Shown here piece after piece: positions 17,460 through 59,462 of a DNA stretch of 64,000 nt. Position 1 is the first letter of the stretch, and each line of letters begins with the position of its first letter. The DNA is taken from the NCBI GenBank assembly GCA_000002435.2, contig CM018793.1, one strand, 5' to 3'. The position numbers were made by a program, and so were the translations under genes. Origin of the DNA: Giardia intestinalis (taxonomy: Eukaryota). The notes under the pieces were generated by a model. That model searched no databases, was not told the DNA's origin, and was given only the letters and a program-made list of their open reading frames with translations.

Positions 17460-18714
17460 TTAGATGTCGGCCGCCATGAGTAAAGATACACCAGCAAGGA
17501 TCCATTTTGCGGGCGGCTCCCTCGTCTTGATCTGGAACGTCCATATGTAGGTGGGGCCGCGCCTCTTTGTCTTGTATACAGGGCAGTCGTAGACGTCCTT
17601 GAGGTCCGCCTTGTCTGCGGTCACTGCCTTTAAGTAGATTGGCGGAAGCTCTGGGAAGAGGTCCTTAAGGATGGAGTCCCTGATACAACCGCCCTTCTTG
17701 TCCCAGCGAGCGCCCTCCATGTAGAGGCCGTAGATATACGCACCCTCTCTTGGCGGAGCGGTGATTTCCGAGAGCTCCTTTTTCGTCACATCGGTGATGA
17801 GAGCCATCTTGTCGAGAGGCCACTGGTTCATCCTGGCAGTTGACTGGAGGACGGCGCGCAGGAAAGATTGCGGGTTGAAAAGCGCTGGAAGCCAGACAGC
17901 CTTTGGAAGATTGAGATCAGATGACCACGAAACCAGCTGGTCGCAGCGTTGTATCATGTCCTTCAACCACGGGCCAAGAGACTTCATACTCGGATATGCA
18001 ACGGCTTCCCATTTAGCAGGCACGACATCCAGGTACATGGACTGCATGAGGGCCTCCATTTGCTCGGAGATGGTCAAGTCGCCCTTGAGGCCCAAAGCAA
18101 GTTCCTTGAGAGACGACTTTATTGTGGAGAGCAGCTCATTCATGCGCCCACACTCCTGTAGACAGACACTGACGTAGGGTGTCCGCTCCTCCACTCGATC
18201 GGTAATCTCCAGCATGTCAAAGTTCTCGGGGAGCATATCCAGGATGTCTTCCAACTGTGCCTTGCAGCGGTCCTCGCGAGAGAGTTCGCCACTAGTGCTT
18301 GTGGCCGAGGTGCGCGGCTGCAACTGCATAAGCATCATGAAAAGGGTGTTTGACTGAGTAGTAAGGAACATGATCTCCGCGTTGGGGTGGAGACCATACA
18401 TCTTCGGCGATTCCTCAGGAAGCGCCTCAGCAATGTATGCCTTGTAGCCGTCGTAGCTCATTGGGGACGGCACAGGGAAGTCTGGGGCGAAGAACTTCCC
18501 GTCTTCAAAGAGAGCATCCGACATCAAGGAGTCCATAAACGAGCGCATGAGCCGGCGATCCAGATCATCGCCGACGTGTCCCCCGTAGAAGATGTCGCAA
18601 AACATGTATTTGAGGTCGTCCCAGGGGATTTTGGTGTTATTTTCTAGGTAGTTGAACAAGACATCCTTGCATATGGTCAGGTCGCCATTGTTGAAGTTGT
18701 AGGGGACGTTCCAA
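17460..18714 (-). CDS. dynein heavy chain C-terminal exon (last ~417 aa of a split DHC gene); first base completes a codon from an exon not present in cis
   Basis: Translation upstream of track ORF continues in frame: (x)WNVPYNFNNGDLTICKDVLFNYLENNTKIPWDDLKYMFCDIFYGGHVGDDLDRRL... = DHC C-terminal domain signature (YEFNESDLRI...IPW/F.ALRYL.GE.NYGGRVTDDWDRR); tail KTKRRGPTYIWTFQIKTREPPAKWILAGVSLLM matches DHC C-terminus; reading frame is closed right after the CAG acceptor. Confidence 0.85.
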
Positions 18715-18726
18715 CTGTGTGTTAGT
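18715..18726 (-). promoter_or_regulatory. Giardia fused branch point / 3' splice acceptor motif ACTAACACACAG (perfect consensus) immediately upstream of the dynein exon
   Basis: Minus-strand sequence cagacacatACTAACACACAG|TTGGAACGTCCCC; plus strand 18715-18726 = ctgtgtgttagt. Confidence 0.85.
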
Positions 18727-42535: not shown

Positions 42536-44203
42536 ATGGAGGATGGAGTAGCGAAAATTAAACCGGAGTTTCTGGTTTCTCATGGAACAAGCAATATCGG
42601 TGCGCATTCGTTGACCAAGGAAGGAGGGAGGAACGTCAATTTCGGCACCTCTAGTAACAGCTTGAGACAGCTTTGTAATAGCATCATCCTCAATAAGCAG
42701 TGTAAAAACCCAAAATGTAATGCATACCATGACTTGGATGAATTCTCTGTCTACTATACTCCTCCTCAGACATCCATTTCGTGCCACTTTTTGAAAACGT
42801 ATGGAAAGTGCCCCTTCTCCGTTAATTGCATGTACGCATCTTCTCACTTTCAGGAGTCGCTAGACGATCTATTTGCTAAAAAGTCTGTACCCACAAAGGA
42901 AGAGGTTGTCCCACTTTTAAACGCGTTCCCAGGGGCAACATTGGCAGACCTTCGACGAGGTGAATATAGAAAGTTGGGAGAAAAGCGTTCTTCTGTCATG
43001 CCATCGACTTCATTTACAAGTGCGTTCACCCGCTCAAAGTCGTCATCAGAGCAAAAGCCGCTCATGCTAGCTCCTATGTGCACCGTTGGCACCATTCCGT
43101 TTAGAAGACTTTGCATCCACTACGGCTGCGAAATTACTCTCTGCGAGATGGTATTCGCCAGAGACATTCTTCATGGAGATGCACAGGAGCTTAGAAAAAT
43201 AAAGCGCCATCCAGATGAAAAATGCTTCGGGATTCAGCTAGCAGGGCGAGGGCAGGAACTTATGGAGATAGTCAACTTCATTTCACAGTGCTGTTCGTGC
43301 GACTTCATTGACCTCAACGCTGCTTGCCCACAGGATATCGCGACAAAGAAGTGCTGTGGTGCTGCACTTGCTGCCAATCTAAAGAAGCTAGTCAGTTCTG
43401 TTGATTGCATGGTAAGAGGAGGGGAGCACTATGGTGTCCCTGTATTTCTTAAGATTCGGGCAGGGGATCTGCGCGGCGACTGGACAGGAGACTCTGTGGC
43501 ACAGGCCTTAAGGCTATCTGGTTTATATGGTTTAAGTGTCCATCTGCGTACGGCAAAGCAGCGCTACTCTAAATTAGCAAACTGGGACTACCTGGTATCT
43601 ATGCGGCATGCTTTGGATAATTGTGAAGAAAGTACAGCGCCTGATCTAGAACCACAACTTAAGCACGATATCAGTAGTAGTACCACCAACAGGCCCATTA
43701 TACGTACCCCTCCTTTGCTGGGAGGAAATGGAGACATATTCGATTATACAGATTTGCACCGTGACGACCATTCAACAGTTGACTATTATCTTATTGCACG
43801 AGGAGCACTTGTGAAACCGTGGATTTTTCAAGAGATCAAAGAAGGCCGTCGAATAGACATGTCGTCACAATCGCGACTCGAAATGCTGAAGCTTTTTGCA
43901 TCCTTCTGTTTAGAGTATTACGGATCTGACGCCCCTGGAGTTGAGAAGGCCAGAGCTCAATTCTTAGAGAACTGGAGTTTTATGTGCAGGTATATTCCCG
44001 TCGGTATACTCGATGAGCCACAGAAACTCAACCAACGGCCCCCGATGTTCCGCGGCCGTGATGAGCTAGAGACGCTAATGGCTTCTCAATCAGCCTCTGA
44101 TTGGGTCACCATCTCCGAGATGCTCTTTGGGCCTGTACCAGCGGGATTTTCCTTTGTACCGAAACACAAAAGTCATGGATATGTTTCCGAGTCTGTAAAT
44201 TAA
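42536..44203 (+). CDS. tRNA-dihydrouridine synthase, DUS3-like (CCCH zinc fingers + Dus TIM-barrel)
   Basis: N-terminal CCCH-type fingers (CKNPKCNAYHD; CHFLKTYGKCPFSVNCMYASSH) followed by Dus core LAPMCTVGTIPFRRLCIHYGCEITLCEMVFARDIL (cf. LAPM..VG.LPFR.LC...GADIT.SEM), catalytic-region C/K residues; ATG with aagatttaattaaaaATG initiator. Confidence 0.8.
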   Translation: MEDGVAKIKPEFLVSHGTSNIGAHSLTKEGGRNVNFGTSSNSLRQLCNSIILNKQCKNPKCNAYHDLDEFSVYYTPPQTSISCHFLKTYGKCPFSVNCMYASSHFQESLDDLFAKKSVPTKEEVVPLLNAFPGATLADLRRGEYRKLGEKRSSVMPSTSFTSAFTRSKSSSEQKPLMLAPMCTVGTIPFRRLCIHYGCEITLCEMVFARDILHGDAQELRKIKRHPDEKCFGIQLAGRGQELMEIVNFISQCCSCDFIDLNAACPQDIATKKCCGAALAANLKKLVSSVDCMVRGGEHYGVPVFLKIRAGDLRGDWTGDSVAQALRLSGLYGLSVHLRTAKQRYSKLANWDYLVSMRHALDNCEESTAPDLEPQLKHDISSSTTNRPIIRTPPLLGGNGDIFDYTDLHRDDHSTVDYYLIARGALVKPWIFQEIKEGRRIDMSSQSRLEMLKLFASFCLEYYGSDAPGVEKARAQFLENWSFMCRYIPVGILDEPQKLNQRPPMFRGRDELETLMASQSASDWVTISEMLFGPVPAGFSFVPKHKSHGYVSESVN

Positions 44204-44518: not shown

Positions 44519-46684
44519 ATGTTCGAAAAAATTCTCTTCACAAACTGCATATTGCAATTGGCCTGGATAATACAAACAGTAGCTGGGGCATGCACACCGG
44601 GAGAAACTGGTCCAACTAAGTGTAAAACCTGTGACGCTATCATAGGCACAGACAGCTATTGCAGCGAGTGTGACCAGGCGGGCGAAGGACCCATCAATGG
44701 AGTATGTACAAGCGAGCTAAGCGGCAATACTTGCGCTAATAAGATATGCACCCAGTGCGTAAAGAATTACTTCTTATATAAAGGAGGATGCTATAAATTT
44801 GCCGAATCACCGGGAAACATCATATGTGAAGACGCGATAGATGCAGCTGGCGGAACGGACGGAGTGTGTACCACGTGCAAGGCTGCTAACGGCTTCTTCA
44901 AGCATCCCGCCCCTGCAGAAACAAAACAGTCCTGCATTGCTTGTAATGAAACGGCCGGAGTCGTGGACAGTGACACCACGTACAAGGGTACATCCAACTG
45001 CCTGAAGTGTGACCCGCCCGCTGCTGCAATTGGAGCTAGAGCAGATAAAATGGCAGTGTGCACTCTTTGCGATCAGACTAAGTATCTCAAGGAAAGCGCA
45101 TGTGTCGAGAAAGCAGGGTGCGGCGCCAACATGTTTGGTAAGCCAAGTGTACAGGACGGGAATAAATGCATTGCGTGCGGGGATTCAAATGCTGGTATAG
45201 AGGGTTGCGCTGAGTGCACTGCGCCTGATGAACCAACTATTAAACCCACCTGTACAAAATGCACCGGTAACAACTACCTGAAAACCACAAGCGAAGGCAC
45301 GTCGTGCGTACAAAAGGAACAATGTAATGGGGCCTACTTTCCTAATGATAGTGTAGACGGTAAGAAACAGTGCGTTTCGTGTGGCGATGCAACTAATAAA
45401 GGCATAACCGACTGCACTGCATGCAATCTACTCAGCAGTCCGCTAGAAACAGTTCTTATTAAATGCTCTGCCTGCAGAAGTGGGAAGAAGCCTAATGAAG
45501 ATGGATCTGCGTGCGTCGATGCCCCAGGGCCCTCTCCAGAAGAATGCTCGATCGAAGGATGTCAGATATGTTCGGATGACAAAAAGACGTGTGATAAGTG
45601 CCAATCAAACAACTATCTCACTCCAACAAAACTCTGCATATCTGATTGCAAGAAGCTCGGAAACTATTATTTAGCTACCGAGCAAACAACTGGGAGCTGC
45701 AGGGAGTGCGCTATGGTTAATTGCAAAGAGTGTACTGAGAACGGTAAGTGTGGAATATGCAACGATGGCTTTTACCTCCTGAATGAGGAATGTAAGCCAT
45801 GTAATGATAGTTGCAAGACGTGCGAGGGTGGAGTGGAATCTGATAAGTGCACTAGCTGTAAGTCTGGAAGTGCTCTTATTTATGCAGGCAACGGAAATAC
45901 AGGCACATGTAGTCTTGGTTGCATACCCAAATCAAGTGCAGATCCTGGGTCTTGCAAGACATGTGATTTAGCTATTGATGGGACAAAGTATTGCTCAGTG
46001 TGTAATGTGGATAAAGAATACCCTCAAAACGGAGCTTGTGCTGGCATCAAGGCGCGTGCATCCTCATGCCAAGATGGAAATGTTAATAATGGTGTATGTA
46101 GTAAGTGCGAGACAGGGTTCTTCCTTATGAATGGGGGATGTTATGAAATAACCAAGTATCCCGGGAAAACAGTTTGCAGTAAGACAGCGGCTGATGGTAC
46201 ATGTGAGACACCCGCGACCGGCTTTAGTCTAAGTAGCAATACACTCAAAGCTTGCTTTGAAGGTTGTGCTAAGTGTGCTACTGGTGACGATTGTTCTGAA
46301 TGCATCAGCGGCTATGTATCAGGTAGTACCCCTAATAGTTGCGAAAAGTGTAGTACTGGTTGTGCTACATGCTACCCTACTGCCACGACTTGCACATCTT
46401 GTCTTGCTGGATACTATCAATCTGGACCTAAGTGCATTGCCTGTGATAAAGATGATTCTACTATCAAAGGTATTAGTAATTGCTTGAACTGCGCCCCTCC
46501 ATCGTCTGGTAGTGGCTCTGTCCTCTGTTATCTCATGAAAGGTGCCGACAACAACGGCGGGAGCACGAACAAGAGCGGCCTCAGCACAGGCGCCATAGCG
46601 GGGATCTCTGTCGCTGTCATCGTTGTTGTGGGGGGCCTCGTCGGCTTCCTCTGCTGGTGGTTCGTGTGCCGGGGCAAGGCGTGA
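44519..46684 (+). CDS. vsp: variant-specific surface protein (VSP)
   Basis: Signal peptide MFEKILFTNCILQLAWIIQTVAGA; ~40 CXXC motifs; GGCY motifs (YKGGCYKF, MNGGCYEI); C-terminal TM + invariant tail GAIAGISVAVIVVVGGLVGFLCWWFVCRGKA*; AGTAAAC poly(A) signal 8 nt after stop. Confidence 0.92.
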   Translation: MFEKILFTNCILQLAWIIQTVAGACTPGETGPTKCKTCDAIIGTDSYCSECDQAGEGPINGVCTSELSGNTCANKICTQCVKNYFLYKGGCYKFAESPGNIICEDAIDAAGGTDGVCTTCKAANGFFKHPAPAETKQSCIACNETAGVVDSDTTYKGTSNCLKCDPPAAAIGARADKMAVCTLCDQTKYLKESACVEKAGCGANMFGKPSVQDGNKCIACGDSNAGIEGCAECTAPDEPTIKPTCTKCTGNNYLKTTSEGTSCVQKEQCNGAYFPNDSVDGKKQCVSCGDATNKGITDCTACNLLSSPLETVLIKCSACRSGKKPNEDGSACVDAPGPSPEECSIEGCQICSDDKKTCDKCQSNNYLTPTKLCISDCKKLGNYYLATEQTTGSCRECAMVNCKECTENGKCGICNDGFYLLNEECKPCNDSCKTCEGGVESDKCTSCKSGSALIYAGNGNTGTCSLGCIPKSSADPGSCKTCDLAIDGTKYCSVCNVDKEYPQNGACAGIKARASSCQDGNVNNGVCSKCETGFFLMNGGCYEITKYPGKTVCSKTAADGTCETPATGFSLSSNTLKACFEGCAKCATGDDCSECISGYVSGSTPNSCEKCSTGCATCYPTATTCTSCLAGYYQSGPKCIACDKDDSTIKGISNCLNCAPPSSGSGSVLCYLMKGADNNGGSTNKSGLSTGAIAGISVAVIVVVGGLVGFLCWWFVCRGKA

Positions 46685-46691
46685 CTTAGGT

Positions 46692-46698
46692 AGTAAAC
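46692..46698 (+). promoter_or_regulatory. Giardia polyadenylation signal AGTAAAC (AGTRAAY) downstream of VSP stop
   Basis: tgacttaggtAGTAAACgcatc directly after TGA at 46682-46684. Confidence 0.7.
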
Positions 46699-46913
46699 GC
46701 ATCTCCTATTACATCTGCTCAGCAGCCTTGCGCAGAAGTCCAGGAATGAGTGGCCACGAAGCAGGGTCTCCTGACGTCTCGAGTAAACATACATAGTGCT
46801 CGCTCTGCGTGGAGCATCGAAAGCCCGGCGCGGTGTAGCCACGGCTGCTGGTTGGAGCGGAACGCGTTGGAGCTTTTTGAAAATGGCCCTACCCCGTGCC
46901 GGCCACGCGGCCT

Positions 46914-47534
46914 CTAGACCAGCGAGGCGAGGAGCTTCGTGATCCCCGGGCGCGCGCGGTAGCCATCAAATAGCTCGCGCAGCGGCGGAAACTGGTCCAC
47001 GAGCTCCGGACACTCTGCGTCCGCATAATACAGGACCTCCAGGACCGCGTAGTCCGAGTCGAGCGGCTCGAACGCCAGGCTCCGAAGGTTCAGCACGTCC
47101 CGGGTCAGGACGGTCAGCCCCGGAAGGATCCTGTTCTGTCGGTAGGCCGCGATGCACTCCGAGCGCGTCATCTCTGCCCCAGCGGCAAGGGCCTCTGCCA
47201 CGGCTTTGGGCTCCTTCCAGGCGGCGGCAAGGAGATCCTCACAGAAGAGCACCAGGGCCCGCGCAGCAGCCTGCACCTGCAATGACGTGCTGTACCGCCC
47301 CAGGCTCGCCCCCAGGTACTCCAGGATGACCATGCCCCCGGCCACCCGCGCCGCGCTGTCTTCCCACACGGGGAGCGTGCACGATGGTGCACCCACCTTC
47401 GCCGCGGCCACCTGCTCGGCGCTCGCCAAGGGCGCCCACTCGTACCGTATCTCCAGGTCTGCGAGCAGGAGCCGGCACTTCAACGCGGTGCCCCGGGCGT
47501 CGTAGTACGTGAGTCTCGGCGGAACTACGTCCAT
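46914..47534 (-). CDS. glutathione S-transferase-fold protein (cytosolic GST sigma/mu-like architecture), extremely GC3-rich
   Basis: MDVVPPRLTYYDARGTALKCRLLLADLEIRYEW...PVWEDSAARVAGGMVILEYLG parallels GST N-domain (KLTYFNxRGRAE.IR...I.YE...P.LEVDG..L.QS.AI.RYL); C-terminal alpha-helical domain; GC3 >80%; ATG at 47534 preceded by agaagtaaaATG. Confidence 0.5.
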   Translation of the reverse strand: MDVVPPRLTYYDARGTALKCRLLLADLEIRYEWAPLASAEQVAAAKVGAPSCTLPVWEDSAARVAGGMVILEYLGASLGRYSTSLQVQAAARALVLFCEDLLAAAWKEPKAVAEALAAGAEMTRSECIAAYRQNRILPGLTVLTRDVLNLRSLAFEPLDSDYAVLEVLYYADAECPELVDQFPPLRELFDGYRARPGITKLLASLV

Positions 47535-50500
47535 TTTACTTCTCTGGTGGGCTCGTATCAACTGTGCCAAGGTGCGAGGCAACCCCTGGCACGCGGGCCA
47601 CCTCTCCCGGGGGGAGATCCTTGGGTTTCAGTTTACTATCTGAGCGCCAGCTTCATGTAGCTGCTATACGTTGCTAACTGCTAGTACCTGCATAGATAGT
47701 GGTGGGGTTGGGGTGGACACTAGGCTGGCGCGATTTATGGAGGTCGTTTGCCTCCTGGGTCGTTTGAACCTCGAGGGTCCGGAATCTTCCAGTTGGACCC
47801 TCTAAATCATATCACGAACCATCAGACGGAGAGACCGACCCACAGCTGGTCAAAAGGGTCGGCAGTGATCGCAGCCACTGTGTCACTCGAGGACCTGTTG
47901 GGGCCCGGGACTCTGCAGAAGCTCCTCACTAGTTCGGTCTTGAAGTCCACGCTCTTGTGTGCCAAGATCCACGTCTTGTTATGCGTGCCGTGCTTTCCAG
48001 TATAATCGTGCTTATACTTGTCGCCCTCTCTAATGCAGTTTCTAATGCTACCATGACGGGACTTCTCGCTATTTTGTGCTTCATGTTTGTCAACACGGCC
48101 TAGGTGCCCTGCTGTCTGTTCTGCAGCCGCTTCATCTCCTGCTAGAAGGAAGCGAGAGCCCTTGGGTATCCGGTAAGACTTCTGAGTAAACGAGGTAATG
48201 CTTCGATGAGTGTACGTTAGTCGCATCGGCACAGAGCGCGTACTAACCAGACGAAGTCACATGTCTGCTAACTTCTATATAATATTCTAAAGCTATCCGG
48301 TCTCTGGGTGGCACCGCCAGGTGTGTAGTGGGGCCCGTGGCCATTAAGACCCAGAAGGGCCTCTTCTCCTACTTGGCTCCGGAGTCAGTCCCAGTAGAGC
48401 ATTGTTATGAGGCTGGTGTGCAGAGAGACACCGGATAGTTTGTACCGGTACACACCCCTTGTCCCCAGACGGCACTCACCAGGAGTAGGCATTCGTAGAA
48501 CCGCAGCATCGTGGGCTTGTGCACCGCTCGCTGCCCATGCACGTGTAGCTGCAGGCACACAAGCCAGTCGAGAGGCGCTCACTTGCCGGAGCTCCCTAAT
48601 CACTGTTCAGAACACCGAACCGACGCCCCTGCCAGCGCGCCGCTCTTTGTAAGATACCCCAGAGGAACTCCAGTCGTCGCTCAACAGCGTGCATACCCGA
48701 GGCCTCTGTCTAGGGAACACTGCGCCCGCCTCTGCATGTCTTGAAGTGCAGAAAAGAAGGTCTACCGATAGAGCCCTACACCATGTCCAGACATCCTATG
48801 TTTTCAGAATCTTCGCGCAAGGATAAGAGGTAGGATGGGCAGAACTTGGCTGGCCTCGCGTCATGCAGATAGCGATGCTATGCGTACCACGTGATTGCAT
48901 GTCACCGCACAAAGACAAGAGCCTGTATCAGCAGCCGACGGCATTTTACCAGTAGACCGAGGGACATTCCCGCACTGTACTCATTCTCCTGTGTAACTTT
49001 CAAGCATGTTCGGTCGTGCTGGACGCTGCCTTTAGTCATATCTTGCTGAATAGCCAACGCAGTTGGCAGTGACCCCAAATATAGTGCGCCTTGCCTAATT
49101 CAGACTCCGGGATAGGCGTGTGGAAGACAAGCAGACGCATAGTATGGAGCACAGAGAGCCGTAGAGACAGTTCTAAGCGCATCATAGAGAAGCAGAGTGG
49201 GCTGTGGCCTCATGTGGTTAGAGGTATATGATCGTATAGTCTTCTGTTCAGGACACATATCTTGGGAGCCACTGCGTTGAGTCCTCTAGACCATCACTTG
49301 GAGGGCGAACCGTCGTGCAATGCAGGGCTGCATGCCAAAAGACACATGTCTGTCAGGAGAAGGTCGAAGGACGGATCCACAGGCATTGCATGACTTGCTG
49401 GCATTCTTCTGTACAGAGCGTAATGCCTCGTGACAGGGAAGTCGTAGTTTTGTCACCAACCCCAATAGGGCTAAGGCATGATCAACGCAGAACTATGCAT
49501 TCCTGCTGTGGTGTCCACAGAAGTGCTTGTCGAAGAGGATGTTCGCGCTCTCTGAGGGTACACACGAGGAGGGGCTGTGTAATGCGAAGAGCCGGGCACA
49601 GACCTTAAAGGGCTCAGGCTCGTGGTCATAAAAAGTCGCTCCTGCCCGTCTCCGCGGGTACTGCAGTCCTCGATGGTGGATCATCGCATCTTCTCCTTAA
49701 CCGGCACATTGGCAGCCTGGTCTCTGGCGCAGGCACGCAGAGCATCGGGCCAGAAGCGCCGACTCGTTACCTCCTTTGCTCAGCCAAGTCCCGTGTTGGC
49801 CACAGAACACGCGTGTCTGCCCCCAGTGCGTAGCCGCTGAATCCTCAACAGAGGGACGTGTTCAGAAGTCTACGCTAACGCAGCCCACTGCAAGCAAAGT
49901 TCATCTGTCTCTCAGAGAAGAGGCGGCTGGGCCGTGTGTTGCGCATCAAGAGGCCTTTGTGAAGGGCGCCCGCACGTCTCGTCACACATGTGCGTCCGAG
50001 TGACAAGTAGCAGCCGGCGATACGGCCGCCCTCGGCTTCGCAGACACAGCGGGTGTGCTTACTGGTGTTCAAAGCAGTATGCCGTTGATCGTGGCATGCC
50101 TTTTCTCCAGGAGGGCTGGACGCCACTCGAATTGTGACTGTGTGCCATAGACGGGTGCTCTCCTTGTTACTCTGTAACACTCGTGCGCATCGGGACCGGC
50201 GATTCGCATCTGTGATCCAGACAGGAGCAGCGTCTTGTACTTCCGAGTAAGATGCAGCCGGCCCGCGAGCCTACGTGCCGATCTATAGTCTATAACAAGC
50301 AAGCGGCAACCACTTGGCGTGCTACTCACGTGGACATTGCAGACTCTGCATCTGAATCGAGAGGCTTGACAGCGTACCGATTCCACGCTTGGCCGTCATA
50401 GGAGCCGCTTCCTTCTGCTCAGTAGTAAGCAGTCCGGCTTTACCGGTAGGAATGATCGATATAGCTGAGTGGCCCGAATAGACCCTAGTGACACCACGGC

Positions 50501-51526
50501 TTTCTGTTTATATTAAACGCCTTCGCTGTACTGGGGTCTCAGTGAGAAGACGAGCACAGATCCAGGCATGCAAGCCTTTAGAGATGCGTACTCCACGCAA
50601 TTCCGGTGTGCTCGCCTGACGAGTCCTACTGCTCTAGCCGGCATACCGTTAGATCCTTCTGTACAGATTGAGCGAGCAGATATTAGCATACGGGTCACGT
50701 TAAGTACCTATGTTCAAGGCAGCTGCTGTTGAACGGGCACACCCAGAGCCACTGTCACGTAAGATGCCAGCAAGATTCGCGGCCGCAGATCACACTGTAA
50801 TCTGGCGACTGATTTGGTCATGTCGCTTCTTTATCGGCTGGAAACTCGACTGGAAGCGACAGAGAGCACGTCGGGAGAACTCGATGGGAGAGGACTGGCA
50901 GGGCTTCCTGCGCCACGGGGGGAGCCACCGCAGGAGGACGCGCAGGCACGCACGCCAGGCCACAGTAGACACGCGGACGCCCCTGTAGACTGGGCCGGCA
51001 GCAGGCGTCCGCAGAATCCGCGCCAGAGCCAGCTGCTCAAAAAACTGGGCAGCCTCTGGTCGTGTGCAGGCCTTGCAGAGCGCTGCGGCTCCCGACACTC
51101 GGCGACCCCTCTCAGAGCGGAAGACCCCGCGGGCCGCAGGCAGCAGCTCGTCGTCGGCGATGTCCCGAACGAGGGGGACGGCCCCAGCCTGCCTGCCTCC
51201 GCAGAGCTCTGGGTGTCTGCAGACAAACCGGGGCTGCGCAGGGCGCGGCTCTCCCTGGCGGCCGAGGGCGGGGATCCCCGGCAATACCAAAAAACTCCGA
51301 TCAATACATCAACCCCGGCGCCGCCGTGTGCAAAGCAGTCTGTTCTGTGTGGCGACCTAAGCCAACTCGTACTGCGGCGATGGCCCGGATGAGGGCGCCC
51401 TGCTCGCCCGACGGACCGGGGCAGGCAGGCAACAAACACCCGCTAAAACTTTTGCGCAAGGCCTGTACATATTTAATTTCACATTATTCGTTGGTCTGTT
51501 TTTAGTTTTATCGCCGCTTCTATTGG

Positions 51527-52117
51527 ATGGGCTCTGGGGCAATGACGGCGGAGACGCGCGCCTCCGTTCTGCTCGAGCTCGCGAAGCAGGTCGTCGCTGC
51601 CCGGCGGCTGGGGGAGACGGCCGAGAGCCTCGCGCGGCGGCCGCTGCTCCTCCACCGGCACGTGCTCCGGACGGCCATCGACTGGAAGAAGATCGCCCGC
51701 GCCCTGTCCGAGGACCGGAGCAGGATCTACCACTGGTACCGCGAGACGCACTCGCGGAGCATCCTCAACGTGAAGATGACCGGCGAGGACCGCAGGGCCA
51801 TCAAGGCGATGATCATCGCCGGGGTCAGGGACCGGAGCATCCTGGGCCCGGACTTCTACCGCAGGGTCCACGAGCGCTTCGGGGCGAAGTATCCGCGCCA
51901 GGAGCTGCGGATGACGTACAACAACGCGCTCCGCACCCAGGACGTCCGCGCCGCCCTGGAGGAGCATGGGGTTCTTCCTGGGCCCGGCACCCTCTCGCTC
52001 CAGACGGGCCAGGATCTTCTCGGGCCGCCCACTTCCTTCGCATGCGTGCCATGCTTCCCCCCTGCGGGCTACGGGGGCGTGCCTGGGTGCGCTGATACAT
52101 ACCCCAGTAAGGGCTGA
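51527..52117 (+). CDS. candidate GC-rich gene encoding 196-aa protein with two Myb/SANT-like helix-turn-helix units
   Basis: Only ORF in the GC-rich desert with protein-like composition (IDWKKIARALSEDRSRIYHWYRETH; RRAIKAMIIAGVRDRSILGPDFYRRVHERFG); ATG preceded by a sharply AT-rich initiator patch (tacatatttaatttcacattattcgttggtctgtttttagttttatcgccgcttctattggATG) embedded in ~68% GC DNA. Confidence 0.3.
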   Translation: MGSGAMTAETRASVLLELAKQVVAARRLGETAESLARRPLLLHRHVLRTAIDWKKIARALSEDRSRIYHWYRETHSRSILNVKMTGEDRRAIKAMIIAGVRDRSILGPDFYRRVHERFGAKYPRQELRMTYNNALRTQDVRAALEEHGVLPGPGTLSLQTGQDLLGPPTSFACVPCFPPAGYGGVPGCADTYPSKG

Positions 52118-53407
52118 AGACTGGAGAGCCCGGCTTGCCTGGTGGTCGTCGAGGGGCATCGACGAGTGGTCGGTAGAAACGGCTAATAGTTGAAGTCCTG
52201 GTCAGTGGCGAGACAGTCATTCCTAGAGCGTGTAGCATGCTCGGCCACTTCATAACGCAGGGCCCACCAGACGCAAGCTGTGACGGCCTGGATGTCGCGC
52301 AATCCGTGGCCTGTGCATCGTTGCAGGGGCCATACACAGCAGGTGGAGGCAGGGTTTCCTGTGTGCTCAGACGACTCGACCATCGCAGTTCTGGGTCGAC
52401 GATCCACTAGATATTCCTGTCTAACAACGGGCGGCCGAACGCCCTCTGGGCTGTGAGCTAACACTAACGTGCAGTTGGTCGGCCACCAGATCCATCTTGG
52501 TTAGCCCTCTGCCTACATGCGCCAACACGCCGAGGAGCTACAGGGCAGTCGTTTGCTGTCTTGACAGGTATACTATTGCCTCTATATCTGCACCCTGGAT
52601 GCGGCCACCATAGCACAGTTGCATCTCTGATCATCCTGTGCACACCTTCTGGCACGAGCAGGTGCGCCGGAAGGGATGCACTGCCCACCGCCGAGAAATG
52701 GATGAACTCCCTTACCCAGGAGCCGGCTGACCACTAGCCGTGCCCAGCAAACCCCAATAAGCAGGCCTGCTGAGCCAACCCATCCAAGAAGCTGTGTATC
52801 CGGAAGAGCTTCGCGTCGAATGGCTCCTTGATTAAAGAAGCTGGCATCCAGCGCGACATGACGACTGCTCGCCTGGTGCTGTGCTACCTGCTGGGCGGAA
52901 ACACAGACGCCCTAAGCTCCGTGTGAGCTTGTGCTCAAAGCGTCCTTCACCGGCACGGGATTCCAGGAACTAGGCGTAGATAGGAAGAGCATTCCCCGCT
53001 AGTGCCACGAAGTACCGGTACGCTACCTGGATACACCGATGGCAGCGAAGAGTACGAGAAGGTCCCAGGGCCTCATCGAGCGGGTCTGCTCCTAGCAGGC
53101 CCAAGTGGACGCTCTCTCCAGCAGTGTACAAGAAGCCTGGGAGGGAGTGCTCAGGCTGGAGCTGAGGCGTTGCTGGTACAGGCTGTCCTTACTGAGTGCA
53201 TCCCTCAGCGTCCAATAAGTGGAAAAGTGACCGGAGCTAGGTGTGCCTGCTTCTTCTCTGCCGCCTGCATGTTGTTGCATCTCTAGCTCTTCCTCATTTG
53301 TCGAGCGACTGCTCCTTCTGGCCTCTTGCTGGTCCTCGTTCGTCGTGTAGTCTCTTTTGGAGCTGCTCCCTGGAGGTCGGGCTGACCAGCAACATGGAGG
53401 AGCCTCA

Positions 53408-56400
53408 TTCTTAGCTTCACACTCCACAACTGGCCCAGCGACATGTTGACCATTTTACAAGCAGTTCTGGGTCGCCCAGTCTGGGGCCGGCTGCTGTGCA
53501 TTCTCTGCTTGACTGCCAGGGTCCGCGTCTGGCCCAGACACTAGATGGACAGGAGGCACGGACAAACGCCATTTGCTTGTTGCTTTCATGATCCACGAAG
53601 CTGCTGTCTTTATGTGAGTCTCGACCCAGGTCGGTCTCCGTTGTAGGTGCAACAGTCTTGCGCATGCAATCTGGAGGATCTACGTTAGCGGGTCGAGCCG
53701 AGCAATCCTTGTTAGCGCCTGCCATCCGACGTCTCTGTTGTTGAACTGGCCTGTAGAAGTCCGCTATAGGCCCTCAGGCTCTTTGTCTGTGAGGTTCTGT
53801 GAGGTCCTCTATACCGGTCAGGCCTGTCCGCGTACTCTGTTGATGGGCGAGCTGGTGCATGCAGTCACAGCCCCTGCGCCACCTTCCATTCGGCACTCGG
53901 CGTGTCCACCTGCTTCCGGCCTGCCCTCGCAGAGCACGCTAAGCGCCCACCTATAGCGCATGTCGGTGGAGACTCCTCGGGAGCAATTTGCGGGGGTCTC
54001 GATGAGGTGGCCGACGCCCAGTGAACGACCCCAAGCCACCCTTTAGTGTCTGCGCTGTCGCTCCACGAGAGTGCGTAGTGGGATGCGGCCCGGAGTCCTC
54101 ATGTGCGGGGGCTGACAAGGACTGACAGCCACAGTCAACGGCAGAAAGTTCGGCACCCCGTGTTCCCACGACGTCTCCGATCGCAGTACTGGCGGGGCCT
54201 GACGGCGCTTCTCTTCTTAATTCGGAACGAGTTAAGGAGTTTCCGCCGTAGGATGGCCGAACTGGCGGCCGGCAGGGCTGTGCGATGTGTTAGAGATTGT
54301 TAGAGATTCATACTGTATATTGTGCAGTGGCTAACGTGTATGGGTGTCCCACCGAAGACCCGGCGAAGGATGGCACCGGAGGTGAGACAGGATGACTCCT
54401 GGTGGAGGGGACCACGGTGCTGGCTTGCCTGCAGATGCCGTGGCCAAAATCTCAGCCCGTCCAGGAGTTTAACGGAGGTCATGCGGCCGGACACCGAGGC
54501 CTACCGGAGAGCCGCATCGCCCCTGCACGAGCCAGCAAGCACTGCCTTCGACCCGACCACAGTTGAGAGCGCCCATGTCCGTGGATGCCGTCGGTCAGGT
54601 CCCTGAAGACCACCCTGCTCACAGCCCCAGGGATCCCTCTGCAGACTCTGATTTCTATATCCCTGGGGTAGATGTTTGCGGATAGCGGCACAGGGCTCAG
54701 CAAAACCGCCAGAAGATCCACAGCACACTGTCATTAACTATAAACGTCTTGCGGTATTCATTCCACAATTGAGCCGGTCGTACTGACACAGGAACTGGAG
54801 TCAGGCACTTCTAGGGTGCAACTACAGGACTGTGGAGGAGCTTGCCTTCACACAAAGAAGATCACGTGGACCAGATGTGCCCGGACTGAGAAGCGCCCGC
54901 TTTACCGAGTAATGGTCGCTAATCTATGCACACAGATCATGTTTGGCGGCAAGCTCCCCTGTAGCTCATGCATCACTGTGAATCACTGCCTAGAGGCTTG
55001 TGTTGGAGATGCCGCAAGACACTAATGGCTGACAGGTGTGACTAGCCGTTCTTCCAGTGGTCGTCTCTGGATGCACCGAGTACCTAAGGCGATAGATCAG
55101 CGCTGCAGGCCTTGACTGTCACGGGCCTTGTGCATAGCTGATCAAATGCCCAACACACTCTGCCCGAGGGTGCCCAAACCCCACGGTGCTGTAGTCGGGC
55201 TGCTAAGGTGCGAGAGGTGGGGCACAGAGGCGCCTATCAGAGCCAAGGATCTATGTGTCACCTGCCTCTGGGTGGAGCAACTACGCCATAGTAGGGGGTG
55301 TTTGTTGCCATACAGAAGTGGGTACGATGAGATACGAAGGCACAGTCCTGCCGCAGAATCCGACGGGTGCTCGGAAACGGGTAACCCGGTAACCTCGTAG
55401 AATAGCAACGTCGAAGCTATAGAGTAAGCAGATGTAATAGGAGATGCGTTTACTACCTAAGTCACGCCTTGCCCCGGCACACGAACCACCAGCAGAGGAA
55501 GCCGACGAGGCCCCCCACAACAACGATGACAGCGACAGAGATCCCCGCTATGGCGCCTGTGCTGAGGCCGCTCTTGTTCGTGCTCCCGCCGTTGTTGTCA
55601 CCAGTACTATCACCCATCTCGAGGCACATGAACGCACTGGTGGATGACACCGTGCACTGTCTGCACCCAGCGAGCCCCTCAGAGCACTTCTTGCACGGTC
55701 CACTATCGCTACTCTCCTTATAATATCCACGAGCACATACTTTGCATGTGGCAGCCGCGGTTTCGCAGGTGTAGCAGCTTTCATGACATTTCGTGCAAGC
55801 TTTGACGTTACTGAATGCTATGTATCCATCCATACATTCTGTACATTCATTTGCAGTATTACACGTCTTACAGCCTTCAGGGCATATTACAAGGTTGTTT
55901 TCATTATTTAAGTTAAACCCTGGCATAGGTCTATCACAAGTCCCACCAGTTGTCGCCACTGTTGCACATACACTGTGCGCAGGGTACTTCTCATCTTCGT
56001 AGCACCCTCCGTTCATCCGAAGGAGCCCATTAGCACACGAATTGCAGACACCGGTTCCTTGAGAGGTGCATGTCGCAGCCCGCCCACTTGGTTTCGGTGC
56101 ACAGACACCGTTCTGGGGATACTCATTGTCCTGGCTACATGCAGAGCAGTACCTTGTGCCTTTAACAATTAGATCACATGCTTTACAGTTCCCAGTGGCT
56201 TTATCTGTATTGACAACACATTCAGGAGCGCATTTACCCTTCTGCCCATTTGCATAGTCAAGGATGGTTCCAGGTTTGCACTCAGTACAATCATTAGCAG
56301 TGTTTCCCTTACAATTCTTGCAACTACCGTCACACTTCTGGCATATCCCAGCATCGTCAGCATAGAATCCATCTTCGCAGAAACCGCATTTGCCGTTCGG

Positions 56401-57945
56401 ATCACACACAACGCAATTCTTGACCTCGCACTTCTTACAGATCCCTTTGCCGCCCTCTGTGCTGCTGTAGTAGCCTAGAATATATTCGCAATATTTTATG
56501 CACATCCCTGTCGGAGTGAGATAGTTCTTGTCCTTGCACTCCTCACATGTCTTCTTGTCTGCAGAACATTTCTGGCAGTTCTCGACGGGGCAGTCAGAGG
56601 GCGGAGGTTCTGGGGCATCGACACATGTAGATCCCTCGTCATTGGGTGTCTTTCCGCCGTTACACGTAGTGCACTTGATAGCAGACTCTCCAGCTAATCC
56701 GCGAGCTTCCTTGAGAGTACATGTCTTACAGTCAATTATGCCACCGGCGTCGGTGTCTCCACACGGGACGCATTTTTTGATACCCTTAGCTGTGACAGGG
56801 AAGTGGTCTGTCTTACACTGCGTCTTTTCAACGCAACTAGAAGGCGTTACAGCTAATAAATAGTATTCGCCCTCACACGTAGTGCATGTGGCAGAGCCGG
56901 GGCCTTCAGGAGGAGTACACACTTTGCAGTTCGGAACACCTCTGAAACCATCAATCGTATCTGCCTCATTGCAGGCAATGCAAGATTGGTGGGTGTTATC
57001 GCTAGCACCCATATTTTTGAAGAACCCGTTAGCGTCATTGCATGTTTCACAGAGTCCTGCACTACTACTCGCACTTTTGCAAACGGTTTGTCCAGGAGGT
57101 GCTGCTTGTACATAGCATCCACCTTTGTGGAGGAAGTATCCAGCCTTAGTACACTTTCCACATGTGGTTGAATGCTCATCGAGAGCTCCATCAACTTTTT
57201 CACATCCGGCAGTTGTGATAAGCCCATCACTTTTATCCTTACATTCCCCATTAATGGGCACCTCTCCAGGTTTAGCACAGTCAGTGCAAACTCTATCTCC
57301 ACCTATGCTAATGCATTTACCCTGTTTACACTGTCCTGTTTGCGGGTCACTGCTAGCCTCTGTGCATGTTTTTGCTGCCCGTGCTACTTGCAGAATCAAA
57401 ATTCCAAAGAGGATTTTCTCGAACATTGCCAGCAGTCCGTAGAGCATCCAGTAGAGAGAGCCTGCACACCTAATATCAGTGTGCTGTGTCGCTAGACATC
57501 GCTTATGGGGGCGGTCCAGAGGTCTTACATGAGCTGCCCCAACTTTCTGATCAGTTTGGAGACGATGGCTGGTTCTAGACAGCAAACAGGGACTCCTCTT
57601 TATTAGCATATCTAAAACCTGGCACCTTCCCCGGCCGCTCACCCTGGGATTTAGCTCACTTGCCCACTTGCGTCGTCCACCAATGGCGCCTCTCCTTGGT
57701 CTTCCTTCGTGGTGGGTGAAGCTCCGGTCGCTGTCTTTTTTAGATGCTCCCGTCTGTCAGGGGCTGCCATCGGGCTCTCCACTGGCCGCCCCTCGGTGTC
57801 CGTCTGGCTGTGGCCCGGGCAGCGCTCTACAGTCGCGGTCACTTGGGTCTCAGCGGGCCAGCTGGTGGGGAGGCTGGGGCATGGGGCGGTGAGGCTGGAG
57901 GGTGGCGGTGTCGTCTGTGCCCCTGGTCCGGTGGGCCATTGGGGT
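53408..57945. repeat. left arm of large inverted repeat (>=4.5 kb; outer end truncated by mirror of window edge) containing VSP gene plus flanks
   Basis: Mirror-image identical ORF translations about axis 58704 (53417..53725(-) = 63683..63991(+); 55462..57642(-) = 59766..61946(+)); arms begin to diverge near 57900-57945 (few SNPs: G/R, V/A, P/R codon changes). Confidence 0.9.
55462..57426 (-). CDS. vsp: variant-specific surface protein (VSP), inverted duplicate of 59982..61946
   Basis: Identical 726-aa extended ORF to the arm-2 copy; signal MFEKILFGILILQVARA (alt. upstream ATG at 57447), CXXC repeats, GGCY, C-terminal ...GFLCWWFVCRGKA*; AGTAAAC signal on minus strand at 55448-55454. Confidence 0.85.
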   Translation of the reverse strand: MFEKILFGILILQVARAAKTCTEASSDPQTGQCKQGKCISIGGDRVCTDCAKPGEVPINGECKDKSDGLITTAGCEKVDGALDEHSTTCGKCTKAGYFLHKGGCYVQAAPPGQTVCKSASSSAGLCETCNDANGFFKNMGASDNTHQSCIACNEADTIDGFRGVPNCKVCTPPEGPGSATCTTCEGEYYLLAVTPSSCVEKTQCKTDHFPVTAKGIKKCVPCGDTDAGGIIDCKTCTLKEARGLAGESAIKCTTCNGGKTPNDEGSTCVDAPEPPPSDCPVENCQKCSADKKTCEECKDKNYLTPTGMCIKYCEYILGYYSSTEGGKGICKKCEVKNCVVCDPNGKCGFCEDGFYADDAGICQKCDGSCKNCKGNTANDCTECKPGTILDYANGQKGKCAPECVVNTDKATGNCKACDLIVKGTRYCSACSQDNEYPQNGVCAPKPSGRAATCTSQGTGVCNSCANGLLRMNGGCYEDEKYPAHSVCATVATTGGTCDRPMPGFNLNNENNLVICPEGCKTCNTANECTECMDGYIAFSNVKACTKCHESCYTCETAAATCKVCARGYYKESSDSGPCKKCSEGLAGCRQCTVSSTSAFMCLEMGDSTGDNNGGSTNKSGLSTGAIAGISVAVIVVVGGLVGFLCWWFVCRGKA

Positions 57946-59462
57946 GGTAGGTGATCCCCTCTCTGTTTGCCAAGGTGGTTGTGTCTGATCTCCAACCGTC
58001 GTTGTACTCCCGAGACAAAGGCACCGACGATCGTGTCGTGTCCCCCTGACTGAGCGCCTCCTCTCAGCCCCTGCATGTCTCGGGCAGTACTGCTTCTCTG
58101 TTTGACTAGTACGTGAGGGTCAAAGCAGGCCATCCCAGGCCCTCCTGATGCTCTGTGCGGGTCTGCTGAGCCCCCTGGCATGCCCTGTCTGGTGCCTCGA
58201 CGGTAGTTCACCTCGGGCCAGCAGGGGCATGGATGACCCTGTGGATGGGATGGGTTCTCTCAGGCCTCTAGTGTGATGACCCAGAAGACTGACACGGTGG
58301 GGCACCAGTGACTGCACTGTCCCCGTGGTCAGCTGTGCTGCCCCTGGTGGGTCCTCGTTGTAGAGCGCTGTGTGTTGTTCATAGGCAGAGGTGAGCCTCC
58401 TTGGTCTCAAGATGCTCTACCATGCAGAGAGGAGCACGCTGAGGGTCACCCATACCTCACACCTGCTGTGTCCTCGGGGAGTTCCCGGTGTGATCCACTA
58501 GGACCTTGACCCCTCTCGTGGCTCTGATGACTCGCCTCAGGGAGAGTCGGGGCACCCTATACTGAGGGGTGTGCACCCTCCTGCATGAGCTGGGACCCAC
58601 TGCACTGCCCCCAAGGAGGTCTGCTATGAGAGGCAGTGAATGATTGACAGCCCCTCAGAGTGCGGTGGAGGGTGCTCGTGGTCGTCTCTTGTGATCGGGC
58701 ATCACTCTGATGGTCGGCTCCTGTGCCTGCGTGGTGCTCAGAGGTCACCTGTCTGCCTCGTAGCCTGCTGGACAGCCGGGCCTCTTGTGGCGTCCGAAGG
58801 TCTCCTCACTCCTCTGGTCGCTGTCCCCTCGGGTCATAGGTGGAGGCCAGCGAGTCTTCGGAGTCTGGTGCCTGCCTGGGTGTCATGGAGAGGCTGGCAG
58901 CTATCAAGGCTCTGCCACTGCTCGCCTGCCTGGAGTGTGCCTCCCTTGGGCCTGCTCTGCTGTGCTGCGTGAGTCCTCTGGCTCCTATCAGACCTCTGAT
59001 TGTGAGAGTGACTCCACCTGGCCTTCTGATGCCCCTGTGGATGAGCATAGCAATGTGTCTGGTTGAGGATCTCTGGTGCCCGTGGCTGTCACTGCCTCTC
59101 GGGTGCTTGGGTAGTTGCCTGGGGCTCTCGTATGGGGGCACAGTCTGTTCGTGTGTGGATGGTCCTCCTGGACTCATGTCCATCTGTGCACACTGTCACT
59201 CAGCCTCGAGAGCAGACCAGTGCAGTCACCAGGGTTGCTGTCAGAGGGAGTCGTCTGCCACTACCATCGTTCGAGCAGACTCTACAGCTCAGGCTGGCTG
59301 CTGTGCACCCTCATGGCAGGGCTGCTTGACTCCCCTTGGTCATCCTCTCTGTCCCGGTGCACACGGCTCCTGAGGGTTGTCTGGGTGGAGGCACTCACAG
59401 ACCACGAGCACACAGAGGGATGAGTCACAGATGGACAGCCCCCAGTCACCACAACTGCAATC

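What the first reader, a model, noticed from the sequence alone, without database searches (positions are those of the whole stretch)
46700..55440. ~8-kb GC-rich gene desert between VSP loci in an otherwise extremely compact genome
Upstream of 44 kb intergenic spacers are typically 20-150 bp. Between the GST-like gene/VSP and the palindromic VSP there are ~8 kb with GC about 60-70%, no long ORF, dense overlapping short ORFs on both strands (the usual artefact of GC-rich non-coding DNA), no tandem repeats, no TAGGG telomere repeats, and no similarity to the (far more GC-rich) Giardia rDNA. The segment could be decayed VSP/pseudogene material, a recombination buffer around VSP loci, or a source of non-coding RNA. 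It also contains a near-duplicate of the acceptor motif (agCTAACACTAACGTGCAG at 52445-52463) without a convincing exon.
Basis: seen in the sequence. Interest (0 to 1): 0.5.

Follow-up and report, generated by a model that had tools for sequence, protein, structure and literature searches.

The report
Gene-poor arm of Giardia VSP palindrome
The supposed 8-kb gene desert is the left arm of a roughly 23-kb inverted duplication centred on two identical Giardia surface-antigen (VSP) genes; it holds a 5S rRNA gene and a conserved Myb-like gene, both already annotated, among freely drifting non-coding DNA, so it is mostly ordinary.

Summary
Between 46.7 and 55.4 kb no ORF exceeds 226 aa, and GC is 58.5% against 47% in the compact core.

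It is not a desert. It contains:
- a full-length 5S rRNA gene (54145-54264, −);
- a conserved Giardia-specific gene with a Myb-like fold and GC3 near 100% (51527-52117, +; GL50803_113864);
- the GST-like gene (46914-47534, −).

Together these make up 15% of the interval.

The interval is one arm of a head-to-head palindrome. The window shows 4539 nt of 100% identity, cut off by its own end. The accession order in the WB annotation mirrors GST, 60223, 113864, VSP | VSP, d113864, d60223, GST, which gives at least 11 kb per arm.

The remaining DNA is syntenic with assemblage E but diverges by about 31%. That is at or above the 17-27% seen at fourfold-degenerate sites in neighbouring genes, and substitutions show no codon periodicity. 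It is therefore unconstrained non-coding DNA, not decayed VSP, Dus or retrotransposon sequence. Part of it (49220-51972) is a dispersed repeat that accompanies the Myb-like gene family.

The acceptor-like motif is a chance match. Gene-poor VSP surroundings and inverted VSP pairs are already published. Interest is low.

The parts
46547..46719 (+). Conserved VSP 3' end plus 35 nt beyond the stop of VSP 44519-46684. It is 100% identical to the 3' ends of the palindromic VSPs (55427-55599 inverted, 61809-61981).
   Evidence: the VSP proteins are otherwise 41% identical
46914..47534 (-). GST-like gene, 206 aa from the ATG (KAE8304971, 'Glutathione S-transferase-like protein'). It is the outermost gene known to be mirrored in the palindrome. 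The mirrored copy, KAE8304978, differs at 1 of 206 residues.
   Evidence: Pfam GST_N_2 27.1 bits against a cutoff of 25; GC1/2/3 .69/.48/.83; exact match and accessions; 205/206 identity; 87% aa identity to P15 and 24% fourfold divergence
47535..49219 (.). Non-coding spacer, GC 0.54. It is collinear with P15 contig ACVC01000055 at about 60-70% identity. It contains an unconserved 134-aa ORF (47822-48226, −) that is mis-annotated in DH as 'Dus3, partial'.
49220..50765 (.). Non-coding DNA, GC 0.55, belonging to a dispersed repeat. It is 96.6% identical to DH contig AHGT01000025 (L013) in an unrelated chromosomal context, with an abrupt junction at 49220.
50766..51526 (+). GC-rich (0.63) 'leader' shared by all close paralogous loci (94-96% identity) but only 77% identical in P15 and 53% in GS. 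It contains the annotated but probably spurious gene model GL50803_0060223 (50820-51392, 190 aa; KAE8304972/977). An AT-rich stretch lies just before the ATG at 51527.
   Evidence: no GC or mismatch periodicity; sequence
51527..52117 (+). GL50803_00113864, 196 aa. Residues 4-150 form a tandem Myb/SANT-like helical domain and the tail is disordered and proline-rich. GC3 is 0.89 overall and 1.00 over 51600-51840. It belongs to a multi-copy Giardia-specific family. The window copy has an in-frame ~73-aa deletion relative to its 269-aa paralogues.
52545..52890 (+). Conserved non-coding block, mean column identity 71% across 5 loci including a distant paralogue locus. It may be a structured RNA or a 3' element on the + strand. 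The evidence is inconclusive.
52456..52474 (+). It is a chance match.
53408..57946 (.). The part of the left palindrome arm that is visible in the window. It is 100% complementary to 59462-64000. The apparent start at 53408 is set only by the window end.
54145..54264 (-). 5S rRNA gene, full length. A TTT run follows its 3' end directly and a tandem AATCTCTAAC x2 lies just upstream (54288-54308). The mirrored copy is at 63144-63263 (+).
   Evidence: Rfam RF00001 88.3 bits against a gathering score of 38; sequence; TRF; also present in isolate contig L005
55462..57642 (-). Left VSP of the identical head-to-head pair. The probable true start is the ATG at 57426 (MFEKILFG...). The right copy is at 59766-61946 (+).
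   Evidence: Pfam VSP 400 bits
57947..59461 (.). Unique 1515-nt central loop of the palindrome, GC 0.605, CpG observed/expected 0.37.

Best explanation
The interval is the left arm of a large head-to-head palindrome on a Giardia duodenalis WB chromosome. The palindrome has at least 11 kb per arm and a 1.5-kb unique centre at about 58.7 kb.

Each arm carries, from outside to inside:
- a GST-like gene;
- about 4 kb of non-coding DNA;
- a Myb-like gene of a multi-copy Giardia-specific family (GL50803_113864);
- a 5S rRNA gene;
- a VSP gene.

So about 15% of the 'desert' is gene sequence. The rest is non-coding DNA under no detectable constraint. It evolves at or above the synonymous rate between assemblages A and E.

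Inferred, not shown: gene conversion keeps the two arms identical. The inner 7 kb or more is 100% identical and the outer GST region about 99.5% identical, although the arrangement is older than the split between A sub-lineages. Repeated conversion, both between arms and among the dispersed copies of the Myb-like repeat, with a GC bias, would explain the raised GC and the near-100% GC3 of the multi-copy subfamily.

The region looks empty because VSP-associated segmental duplications carry along, and tolerate, long stretches of non-coding DNA. This is the already published pattern that surroundings of VSP genes are gene-poor.
For: Palindrome:
- Arms 53408-57946 and 59462-64000 are 100% complementary, and the right arm is cut by the window end.
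- Accession order on the 4,018,654-bp WB contig is KAE8304969 Dus, 970 VSP, 971 GST-like, 972 60223, 973 113864, [974, 975], 976 d113864, 977 d60223, 978 GST-like. Pairs 972/977 and 973/976 are identical, and 971/978 are 205/206 identical.
- Independent support for two copies: the metagenome contig for 50717-54185 has coverage 62.7, against 22-25 for single-copy contigs of the same assembly. DH has two distinct GST + 136-aa-ORF copies.

Genes:
- 5S rRNA scores 88.3 bits.
- The GST-like gene passes the Pfam GST_N_2 cutoff.

Non-coding remainder:
- It is collinear with P15 at 60-80% identity.
- Mismatches are evenly spread over codon phases.
- The neutral baseline at fourfold sites in adjacent genes is 17-27%.
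- There are no tblastn hits to VSP, RT, Ank, Dus or other window proteins.

Concerted evolution and GC:
- The leader is 94-96% identical among paralogues but 77% to P15 and 53% to GS.
- GC3 of 0.87-0.97 occurs only in the multi-copy subfamily, against 0.45-0.67 in distant single-copy paralogues.
- Fourfold divergence of the Myb-like domain between A and E is 7.8%, a third of the baseline.

Literature: VSP surroundings are gene-poor and WB has ten internal 5S genes (PMC7000408); identical inverted vsp pairs are described (PMC2996952).
Against: - The right arm beyond 64000 is not in the window. Its extent rests on accession order and identical protein sequences, not on DNA that I could read.
- Gene conversion and GC-biased conversion are inferences. 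The single-copy central loop is also GC-rich (0.605), so arm-to-arm conversion cannot be the whole cause of the GC excess.
- High GC3 could instead reflect selection for expression.
- No RNA data were available, so transcription of the spacers, including the conserved block at 52545-52890, cannot be excluded.
- L012 may correspond to the other arm or to a paralogous copy rather than the strict orthologue. That would inflate the apparent divergence.
Confidence: 0.75

Rival explanations
1. It is a true gene desert: functionless GC-rich filler between VSP loci, with no genes and no larger structure.
For: 85% of the interval shows no coding signal and no constraint. There are no Pfam hits for the other ORFs.
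Against: A full-length 5S rRNA gene. A conserved gene with a confident fold and homologues in four assemblages. The GST-like gene. The interval is half of a palindrome.
Confidence: 0.05
2. The Myb-like gene and its GC-rich flanks form a mobile or recombinogenic element. On this reading the DNA-binding protein is transposon-derived, and the element seeds duplications at VSP loci; the 'desert' is the element's body.
For: There are at least 9 near-identical copies on four WB chromosomes. Homology junctions are abrupt at 49220 and 50766. L013 has a mosaic structure. Genes are flanked by 2-3 kb with no called gene in L004, L008, L012, L013 and L014. The bipartite DNA-binding domain of Tc3 transposase is among the fold hits. 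Three of the four subfamily loci have a VSP within 3.5 kb.
Against: No catalytic (transposase, integrase or RT) domain is present in the protein or nearby. Different copies have different boundaries, not fixed termini. No terminal repeats were found. Myb folds are far more common in transcription factors than in transposases. L013 has no VSP nearby.
Confidence: 0.1
3. The spacers encode unannotated functional RNAs or small proteins, for example the conserved block at 52545-52890 or GL50803_60223, so the region is functionally denser than it looks.
For: The 330-nt block is conserved even next to a paralogue that is 45% identical. The proposed structure has 92% of cells paired and 6 pairs changed on both sides, against 0-2 in the slid controls. 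Many G-U pairs favour the + strand. 60223 is annotated in WB.
Against: Only two lineages are effectively sampled, and the structure was derived from the same alignment. The MFE z-score is -0.85. Rfam finds nothing there at E <= 1. For 60223, amino-acid identity is lower than nucleotide identity, the frame is broken in P15, and there is no periodicity.
Confidence: 0.15
4. The perfect palindrome is an assembly artefact, for example chimeric long reads, and the desert is single-copy.
For: 100% arm identity over 4.5 kb is what an artefact would give. Short-read assemblies break at the VSP boundary.
Against: There is a 1.5-kb unique loop, the locus is internal in a 4-Mb contig, and one GST residue differs between the arms. 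Identical inverted vsp pairs were found independently in Sanger assemblies and by cloning (PMC2996952). Coverage is about 2.6-fold in an independent short-read metagenome. DH has two distinct copies.
Confidence: 0.03

Closest known systems
Identical inverted vsp gene pairs of Giardia WB (Adam et al. 2010, PMC2996952)
   Same: There are two identical VSP ORFs head to head. With the longest ATG-ORFs they are 2189 nt apart, which matches the 2190 nt listed for head-to-head pair '26'. The centre is unique, and the 5' identity ends abruptly 337 nt above that ATG.
   Different: The paper reports flank identity ending 139-729 bp from the ORFs, and left the 3' divergence point of pair 26 undetermined. 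Here identity runs at least 2054 nt beyond the stop in the window, and about 8.5 kb by annotation. It takes in a 5S rRNA gene, a Myb-like gene and a GST-like gene. The 5' divergence of 337 nt does not match the listed 169, so the assignment to pair 26 is tentative.
Gene-poor regions around VSP genes in the chromosome-scale WB genome (Xu et al. 2020, PMC7000408)
   Same: Coding density is low next to VSPs in a genome that is otherwise 81% coding. 5S rRNA genes are internal to chromosomes, with ten copies.
   Different: The paper states the trend only. The anatomy given here (palindrome arm, neutral spacers, dispersed repeat, Myb-like fold) is not described in the text I read.
Myb/SANT (homeodomain-like) DNA-binding proteins
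   Different: There is no Pfam Myb match at E <= 0.1 and no PDB sequence match even with a family profile. Only two of the three regularly spaced tryptophans are evident (W53, W70). The family has been seen only in Giardia.
Arm-to-arm gene conversion in large palindromes such as the primate Y-chromosome ampliconic palindromes (from general knowledge)
   Same: The arms are long and near-identical around a short unique spacer. Arm identity is far higher than expected from the age of the duplication.
   Different: Conversion was not demonstrated here. The scale is about 11 kb rather than tens of kb to Mb. Giardia is tetraploid with two nuclei, and its recombination biology is poorly known.

Membership tests
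Identical inverted vsp pair (Adam et al. 2010) | Two VSP ORFs with identical sequence in inverted orientation | tested here: met
   55462-57642 (−) and 59766-61946 (+) lie within 100% complementary arms. Pfam VSP scores 400 bits.
Identical inverted vsp pair (Adam et al. 2010) | 2-4 kb of non-coding DNA between the ORFs | tested here: met
   2189 nt between the longest ATG-ORFs, or 2555 nt between the probable true starts. The loop ORFs are not in the protein collection.
Identical inverted vsp pair (Adam et al. 2010) | Flank identity ends abruptly 139-729 bp from the coding region | tested here: not met
   The 5' side fits, at 337-520 nt. The 3' side does not: identity runs at least 2054 nt to the window limit, and to the GST-like gene by annotation.
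5S rRNA (Rfam RF00001) | Covariance-model score above the gathering threshold over the full model | tested here: met
   88.3 bits against 38, model positions 1-120 of 120, at 54145-54264 (−) and 63144-63263 (+).
Glutathione S-transferase | Thioredoxin-like N-terminal GST domain | tested here: met
   GST_N_2 scores 27.1 bits against a cutoff of 25.
Glutathione S-transferase | Helical C-terminal GST domain | tested here: inconclusive
   GST_C_3 scores 14.4 bits against a cutoff of 21.6.
Myb/SANT DNA-binding domain | Sequence match to the Pfam Myb_DNA-binding or SANT models | tested here: not met
   No family at E <= 0.1. The family profile against PDB sequences gives 0 hits at E <= 10.
Myb/SANT DNA-binding domain | Three-helix homeodomain-like fold, in tandem | tested here: met
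Myb/SANT DNA-binding domain | Sequence-specific DNA binding | not testable with these tools
   This needs EMSA, ChIP or DAP-seq.
Gene desert (no functional genes over many kb) | Absence of protein-coding and RNA genes | tested here: not met
   5S rRNA, GL50803_113864 and the GST-like gene are present.
Giardia cis-spliced intron | GTATGT donor upstream of a CT[AG]AC-N4-AG branch/acceptor on the same strand, joining conserved exons | tested here: not met
   There is no GTATGT on the + strand in 46700-55440. The acceptor pattern occurs 9 times against about 19 expected. No coding signal follows it.
Decayed VSP or Giardia non-LTR retrotransposon (GilM/GilT/GilD) | Residual protein similarity to VSP or reverse transcriptase | tested here: not met
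   tblastn at E <= 0.01 finds only the intact VSPs and their 3' ends, and no RT hit.
Telomeric or subtelomeric DNA | TAGGG repeats or rDNA units | tested here: not met
   There is one 1-mismatch TAGGGTAGGG in the whole window, at 13438, against 2.4 expected. Rfam finds no SSU, LSU or 5.8S match.

The most novel reading that the evidence does not exclude
The multi-copy Myb-like gene (113864 subfamily), its GC-rich leader and the conserved downstream block form a previously unrecognised recombinogenic or regulatory module. This module marks VSP loci and some 5S rRNA loci, and it drives or regulates their duplication, homogenisation or expression. That would make it a candidate trans-factor and cis-element for the unexplained inverted VSP pairs.
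Probability: 0.1. Interest if true: 0.6.

Novelty: already known. Interest (0 to 1): 0.22.

Why it matters
Mostly as a correction. The region is not an anomaly in a compact genome. It is an instance of two published features of the Giardia WB genome: gene-poor VSP surroundings and identical inverted VSP pairs. Its genes are already annotated.

Three smaller points may be useful to Giardia specialists:
- This inverted pair's arms are about 11 kb long and include a 5S rRNA gene. That is far beyond the 139-729 bp of flank identity reported earlier, so the duplication unit is not the VSP alone.
- The hypothetical-protein family of GL50803_113864 has a confident tandem Myb-like fold, near-100% GC3 and suppressed synonymous divergence. 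This makes it a cheap candidate to test for a role at VSP loci.
- GL50803_60223 and the DH 'Dus3, partial' models look spurious.

Tried and rejected
- Six-frame Pfam scan of the whole interval. The tool refuses translations that contain stops, so I scanned 20 ORFs instead. Only the GST and VSP hits appeared.
- Exact look-ups of the two ORFs with bacterial-style starts found nothing, and P0002 was not on record. The WB genome is not in the positional index, so I could not read the right arm's DNA.
- Short-read contigs end 264 nt after Dus.
- Decayed VSP, RT, Ank, Dus or neighbouring-gene fragments: none found by tblastn or blastn.
- The 134-aa ORF as a Dus fragment (a DH annotation): rejected, best E = 0.08.
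- GL50803_60223 as a real gene: rejected as unlikely.
- Intron reading of the acceptor-like motif: rejected.
- 5S rRNA as a constant companion of the Myb-like family: rejected. There is no 5S gene in L004, L008, L009, L012, L013, L014 or L015.
- Structured-RNA reading of 52545-52890: left inconclusive. nhmmer found no further divergent copies.
- Bacterial-type promoter and terminator scan: at chance level and not relevant to a eukaryote.
- Literature search for the gene IDs: nothing found.
- afdb50 fold library: unavailable.


Full report

Between 46700 and 55460 the longest ORF is 226 aa, and it lies antisense to a real gene. The rest of the window is tightly packed with long ORFs. GC is 0.585, against 0.471 for 1-44000.

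Only the 1-kb windows at 47-48 kb (0.62) and 51-52 kb (0.66) pass 0.60, and those are the windows that hold the two real protein genes. The non-coding pieces are 0.54-0.63.

Tandem repeats are limited to trivial two-copy units. There are no telomere repeats and no large-rRNA matches. So the interval is gene-poor and moderately GC-rich, as described. It is not empty.

**2. What is in it?**

- **5S rRNA gene.** Rfam finds a full-length 5S rRNA at 54145-54264 (−), scoring 88.3 bits against a threshold of 38. A mirror copy lies at 63144-63263 (+). A TTT run follows its 3' end and a tandem AATCTCTAAC x2 lies just upstream.

- **Two coding segments.** A frame plot shows two segments with strong codon periodicity. 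The first is the GST-like ORF at 46914-47582 (−), with GC1/2/3 of .69/.48/.83. The second is 51527-52117 (+), with .66/.52/.89 and GC3 of 1.00 over 51600-51840. Neighbouring Giardia genes have GC3 near 0.5.

- **The GST-like gene.** It passes Pfam's GST_N_2 cutoff. It is already annotated in WB as 'Glutathione S-transferase-like protein', and its only homologues are in Giardia.

- **The Myb-like gene.** The 196-aa ORF is GL50803_00113864. Its family has 21 clusters in assemblages A, A2, B and E, with 44 invariant residues including HWYRETH and RQELRMTYNN. The window copy has an in-frame ~73-aa deletion in the proline-rich tail relative to its 269-aa paralogues.
  - Pfam and PDB sequence searches find nothing.
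  - AlphaFold gives a confident helical domain over residues 4-150 (pLDDT above 90).
  - I therefore call it a tandem Myb-like protein, probably DNA-binding. This rests on fold, not on sequence membership.

**3. The interval is one arm of a palindrome.**

Positions 53408-57946 and 59462-64000 are 100% complementary around a 1515-nt loop. The right arm is cut by the window end.

Exact-sequence look-ups give the WB accession order: Dus KAE8304969, VSP 970, GST-like 971, GL50803_60223 972, 113864 973, [974, 975], d113864 976, d60223 977, GST-like 978. Pairs 972/977 and 973/976 are identical. Pair 971/978 differs at 1 of 206 residues. The arms therefore run from at least 46914 to 57946, about 11 kb each, and the whole structure is about 23.6 kb.

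The duplication is real, on four grounds:
- It has a unique loop.
- One residue differs between the two GST copies.
- An independent short-read metagenome shows coverage of about 2.6-fold for 50717-54185.
- The DH isolate has two distinct copies.

With the longest ATG-ORFs the two VSPs are 2189 nt apart. This matches head-to-head pair '26' of Adam et al. (2190 nt), whose 3' divergence point was undetermined. That paper reports flank identity of only 139-729 bp. Here it is more than ten times longer.

**4. The rest is unconstrained non-coding DNA, and part of it is a dispersed repeat.**

P15 (assemblage E) contig ACVC01000055 is collinear with 46686-52077. The GST-like gene is 85% identical, 47.9-51.4 kb is 60-80% identical with few indels, and the Myb-like domain is 90-99% identical.

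Mismatches in 47.6-51.5 kb are evenly distributed over the three phases. Fourfold-degenerate sites in four adjacent orthologous genes differ by 17-27%. The spacer's ~31% divergence is therefore at or above the neutral rate.

tblastn finds no remnants of VSP, reverse transcriptase, ankyrin, Dus or any other window protein.

Two gene models in the spacers look spurious:
- GL50803_60223 (50820-51392) has no periodicity, has amino-acid identity lower than nucleotide identity between close copies, and has a broken frame in P15.
- The 134-aa ORF that DH annotates as 'Dus3, partial' has no similarity to Dus.

Parts of the arm recur elsewhere:
- 49220-51972 is 96.6% identical to a DH locus lying between kinesin and ankyrin genes.
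- 50766-51972 is 95.6% identical to a locus next to annexin-domain (alpha-giardin-like) genes.

The junctions are abrupt but differ between copies. Flanks are exchanged between paralogous loci, giving a mosaic structure. In five other loci the family gene is also flanked by 1.5-3 kb with no called gene.

**5. Mechanism (inferred).**

Three observations fit ongoing gene conversion between arms and among repeat copies:
- The arms are identical, although the arrangement is shared with a 3.4%-diverged isolate and, in gene order, with assemblage E.
- The leader is 94-96% identical among paralogues but only 77% identical to E and 53% to B.
- Extreme GC3 (0.87-0.97) occurs only in the multi-copy subfamily, and its fourfold divergence between A and E is only 7.8%.

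A GC bias in that conversion would explain the composition. This is not demonstrated. The single-copy loop is also GC-rich, and selection on codon usage is an alternative.

**6. Smaller items.**

- The acceptor-like motif is at 52456-52474. Its pattern is rarer in the window than in shuffled sequence (9 against about 19), and there is no donor.
- A 330-nt block at 52545-52890 is conserved in five loci, including one next to a 45%-identical paralogue. It shows no codon periodicity. A proposed + strand structure does better than the slid and shuffled controls. But only two lineages are sampled, and the folding energy is unremarkable (z = -0.85). It stays an open lead.
- 5S genes do not generally accompany the family.

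**7. Verdict.**

Xu et al. 2020 already state that regions around VSPs are gene-poor and that 5S genes are internal. Adam et al. 2010 describe the inverted pairs. All the real genes here are annotated.

What is new is limited to three things: the arm length and content of this palindrome, the Myb-like fold and odd codon evolution of the 113864 family, and two doubtful gene models. Interest is low.

Noticed in passing
window 18715-18725 (−): There is a perfect canonical Giardia intron branch/acceptor motif, CTAACACACAG, about 56 nt upstream of the ORF 17460-18659 (−).
   Followed up: no
window 57947-59461: The unique palindrome loop has GC 0.605 but CpG observed/expected of only 0.37, against about 0.8 elsewhere. 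Its two ORFs (57651-58211 −, 58840-59373 +) are not in the protein collection.
   Followed up: partly
window 52545-52890 (+); L004 11190-11482; L008 12012-12279; L013 11392-11729: This is a conserved non-coding block downstream of Myb-like family genes, found even at a distant paralogue locus. A 10-bp hairpin at about 52563-52593 keeps its pairing through 3 double and 4 single changes. The folding energy is not significant.
   Followed up: partly
window 50820-51392 (+): The annotated gene GL50803_0060223 and its duplicate d60223 (190 aa) behave like non-coding DNA. There is no codon periodicity, amino-acid identity is below nucleotide identity between copies, and the frame is not conserved in P15. 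This is probably a spurious gene model.
   Followed up: yes
window 47822-48226 (−): A 134-aa ORF here is annotated in isolate DH as 'tRNA-dihydrouridine synthase 3, partial' (ESU34729, ESU36687). It has no significant similarity to the Dus gene at 42536-44203, so this is probably an annotation error.
   Followed up: yes
L013 7692-13559; L008 11149-14097: This paralogous locus is a mosaic. Its upstream part and N-terminal domain are 96.6% identical to the window. Its 3-kb downstream flank is about 90% identical to the flank of a different family member whose protein is only about 45% identical. This is evidence of recombination between family loci.
   Followed up: partly
window 46547-46719, 55427-55599, 61809-61981: A 173-nt stretch, the VSP C-terminal coding end plus 35 nt beyond the stop, is 100% identical between VSPs that are otherwise only 41% identical in protein. 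The 3' ends may be homogenised separately from the gene bodies.
   Followed up: no
window 51527-51976 vs L012 17771-18220: The Myb-like domain has only 7.8% fourfold-site divergence between assemblages A and E, against 17-27% in neighbouring genes and 24% in the GST-like gene. GC3 is near 100%. Synonymous sites are constrained or homogenised.
   Followed up: partly
window 54288-54308 (and mirror 63100-63120): A tandem AATCTCTAAC x2 lies directly upstream of the 5S rRNA start. It may be an upstream promoter element.
   Followed up: no
L001-L003 (Logan contigs); window about 44467: More than 20 independent short-read assemblies all end 264 nt after the Dus stop codon, just before the VSP at 44519. 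This marks the edge of the uniquely assemblable core.
   Followed up: no
L012 9229-9301: A tRNA gene (68 bits) lies about 700 nt upstream of the distant family member GLP15_4271 in P15.
   Followed up: no
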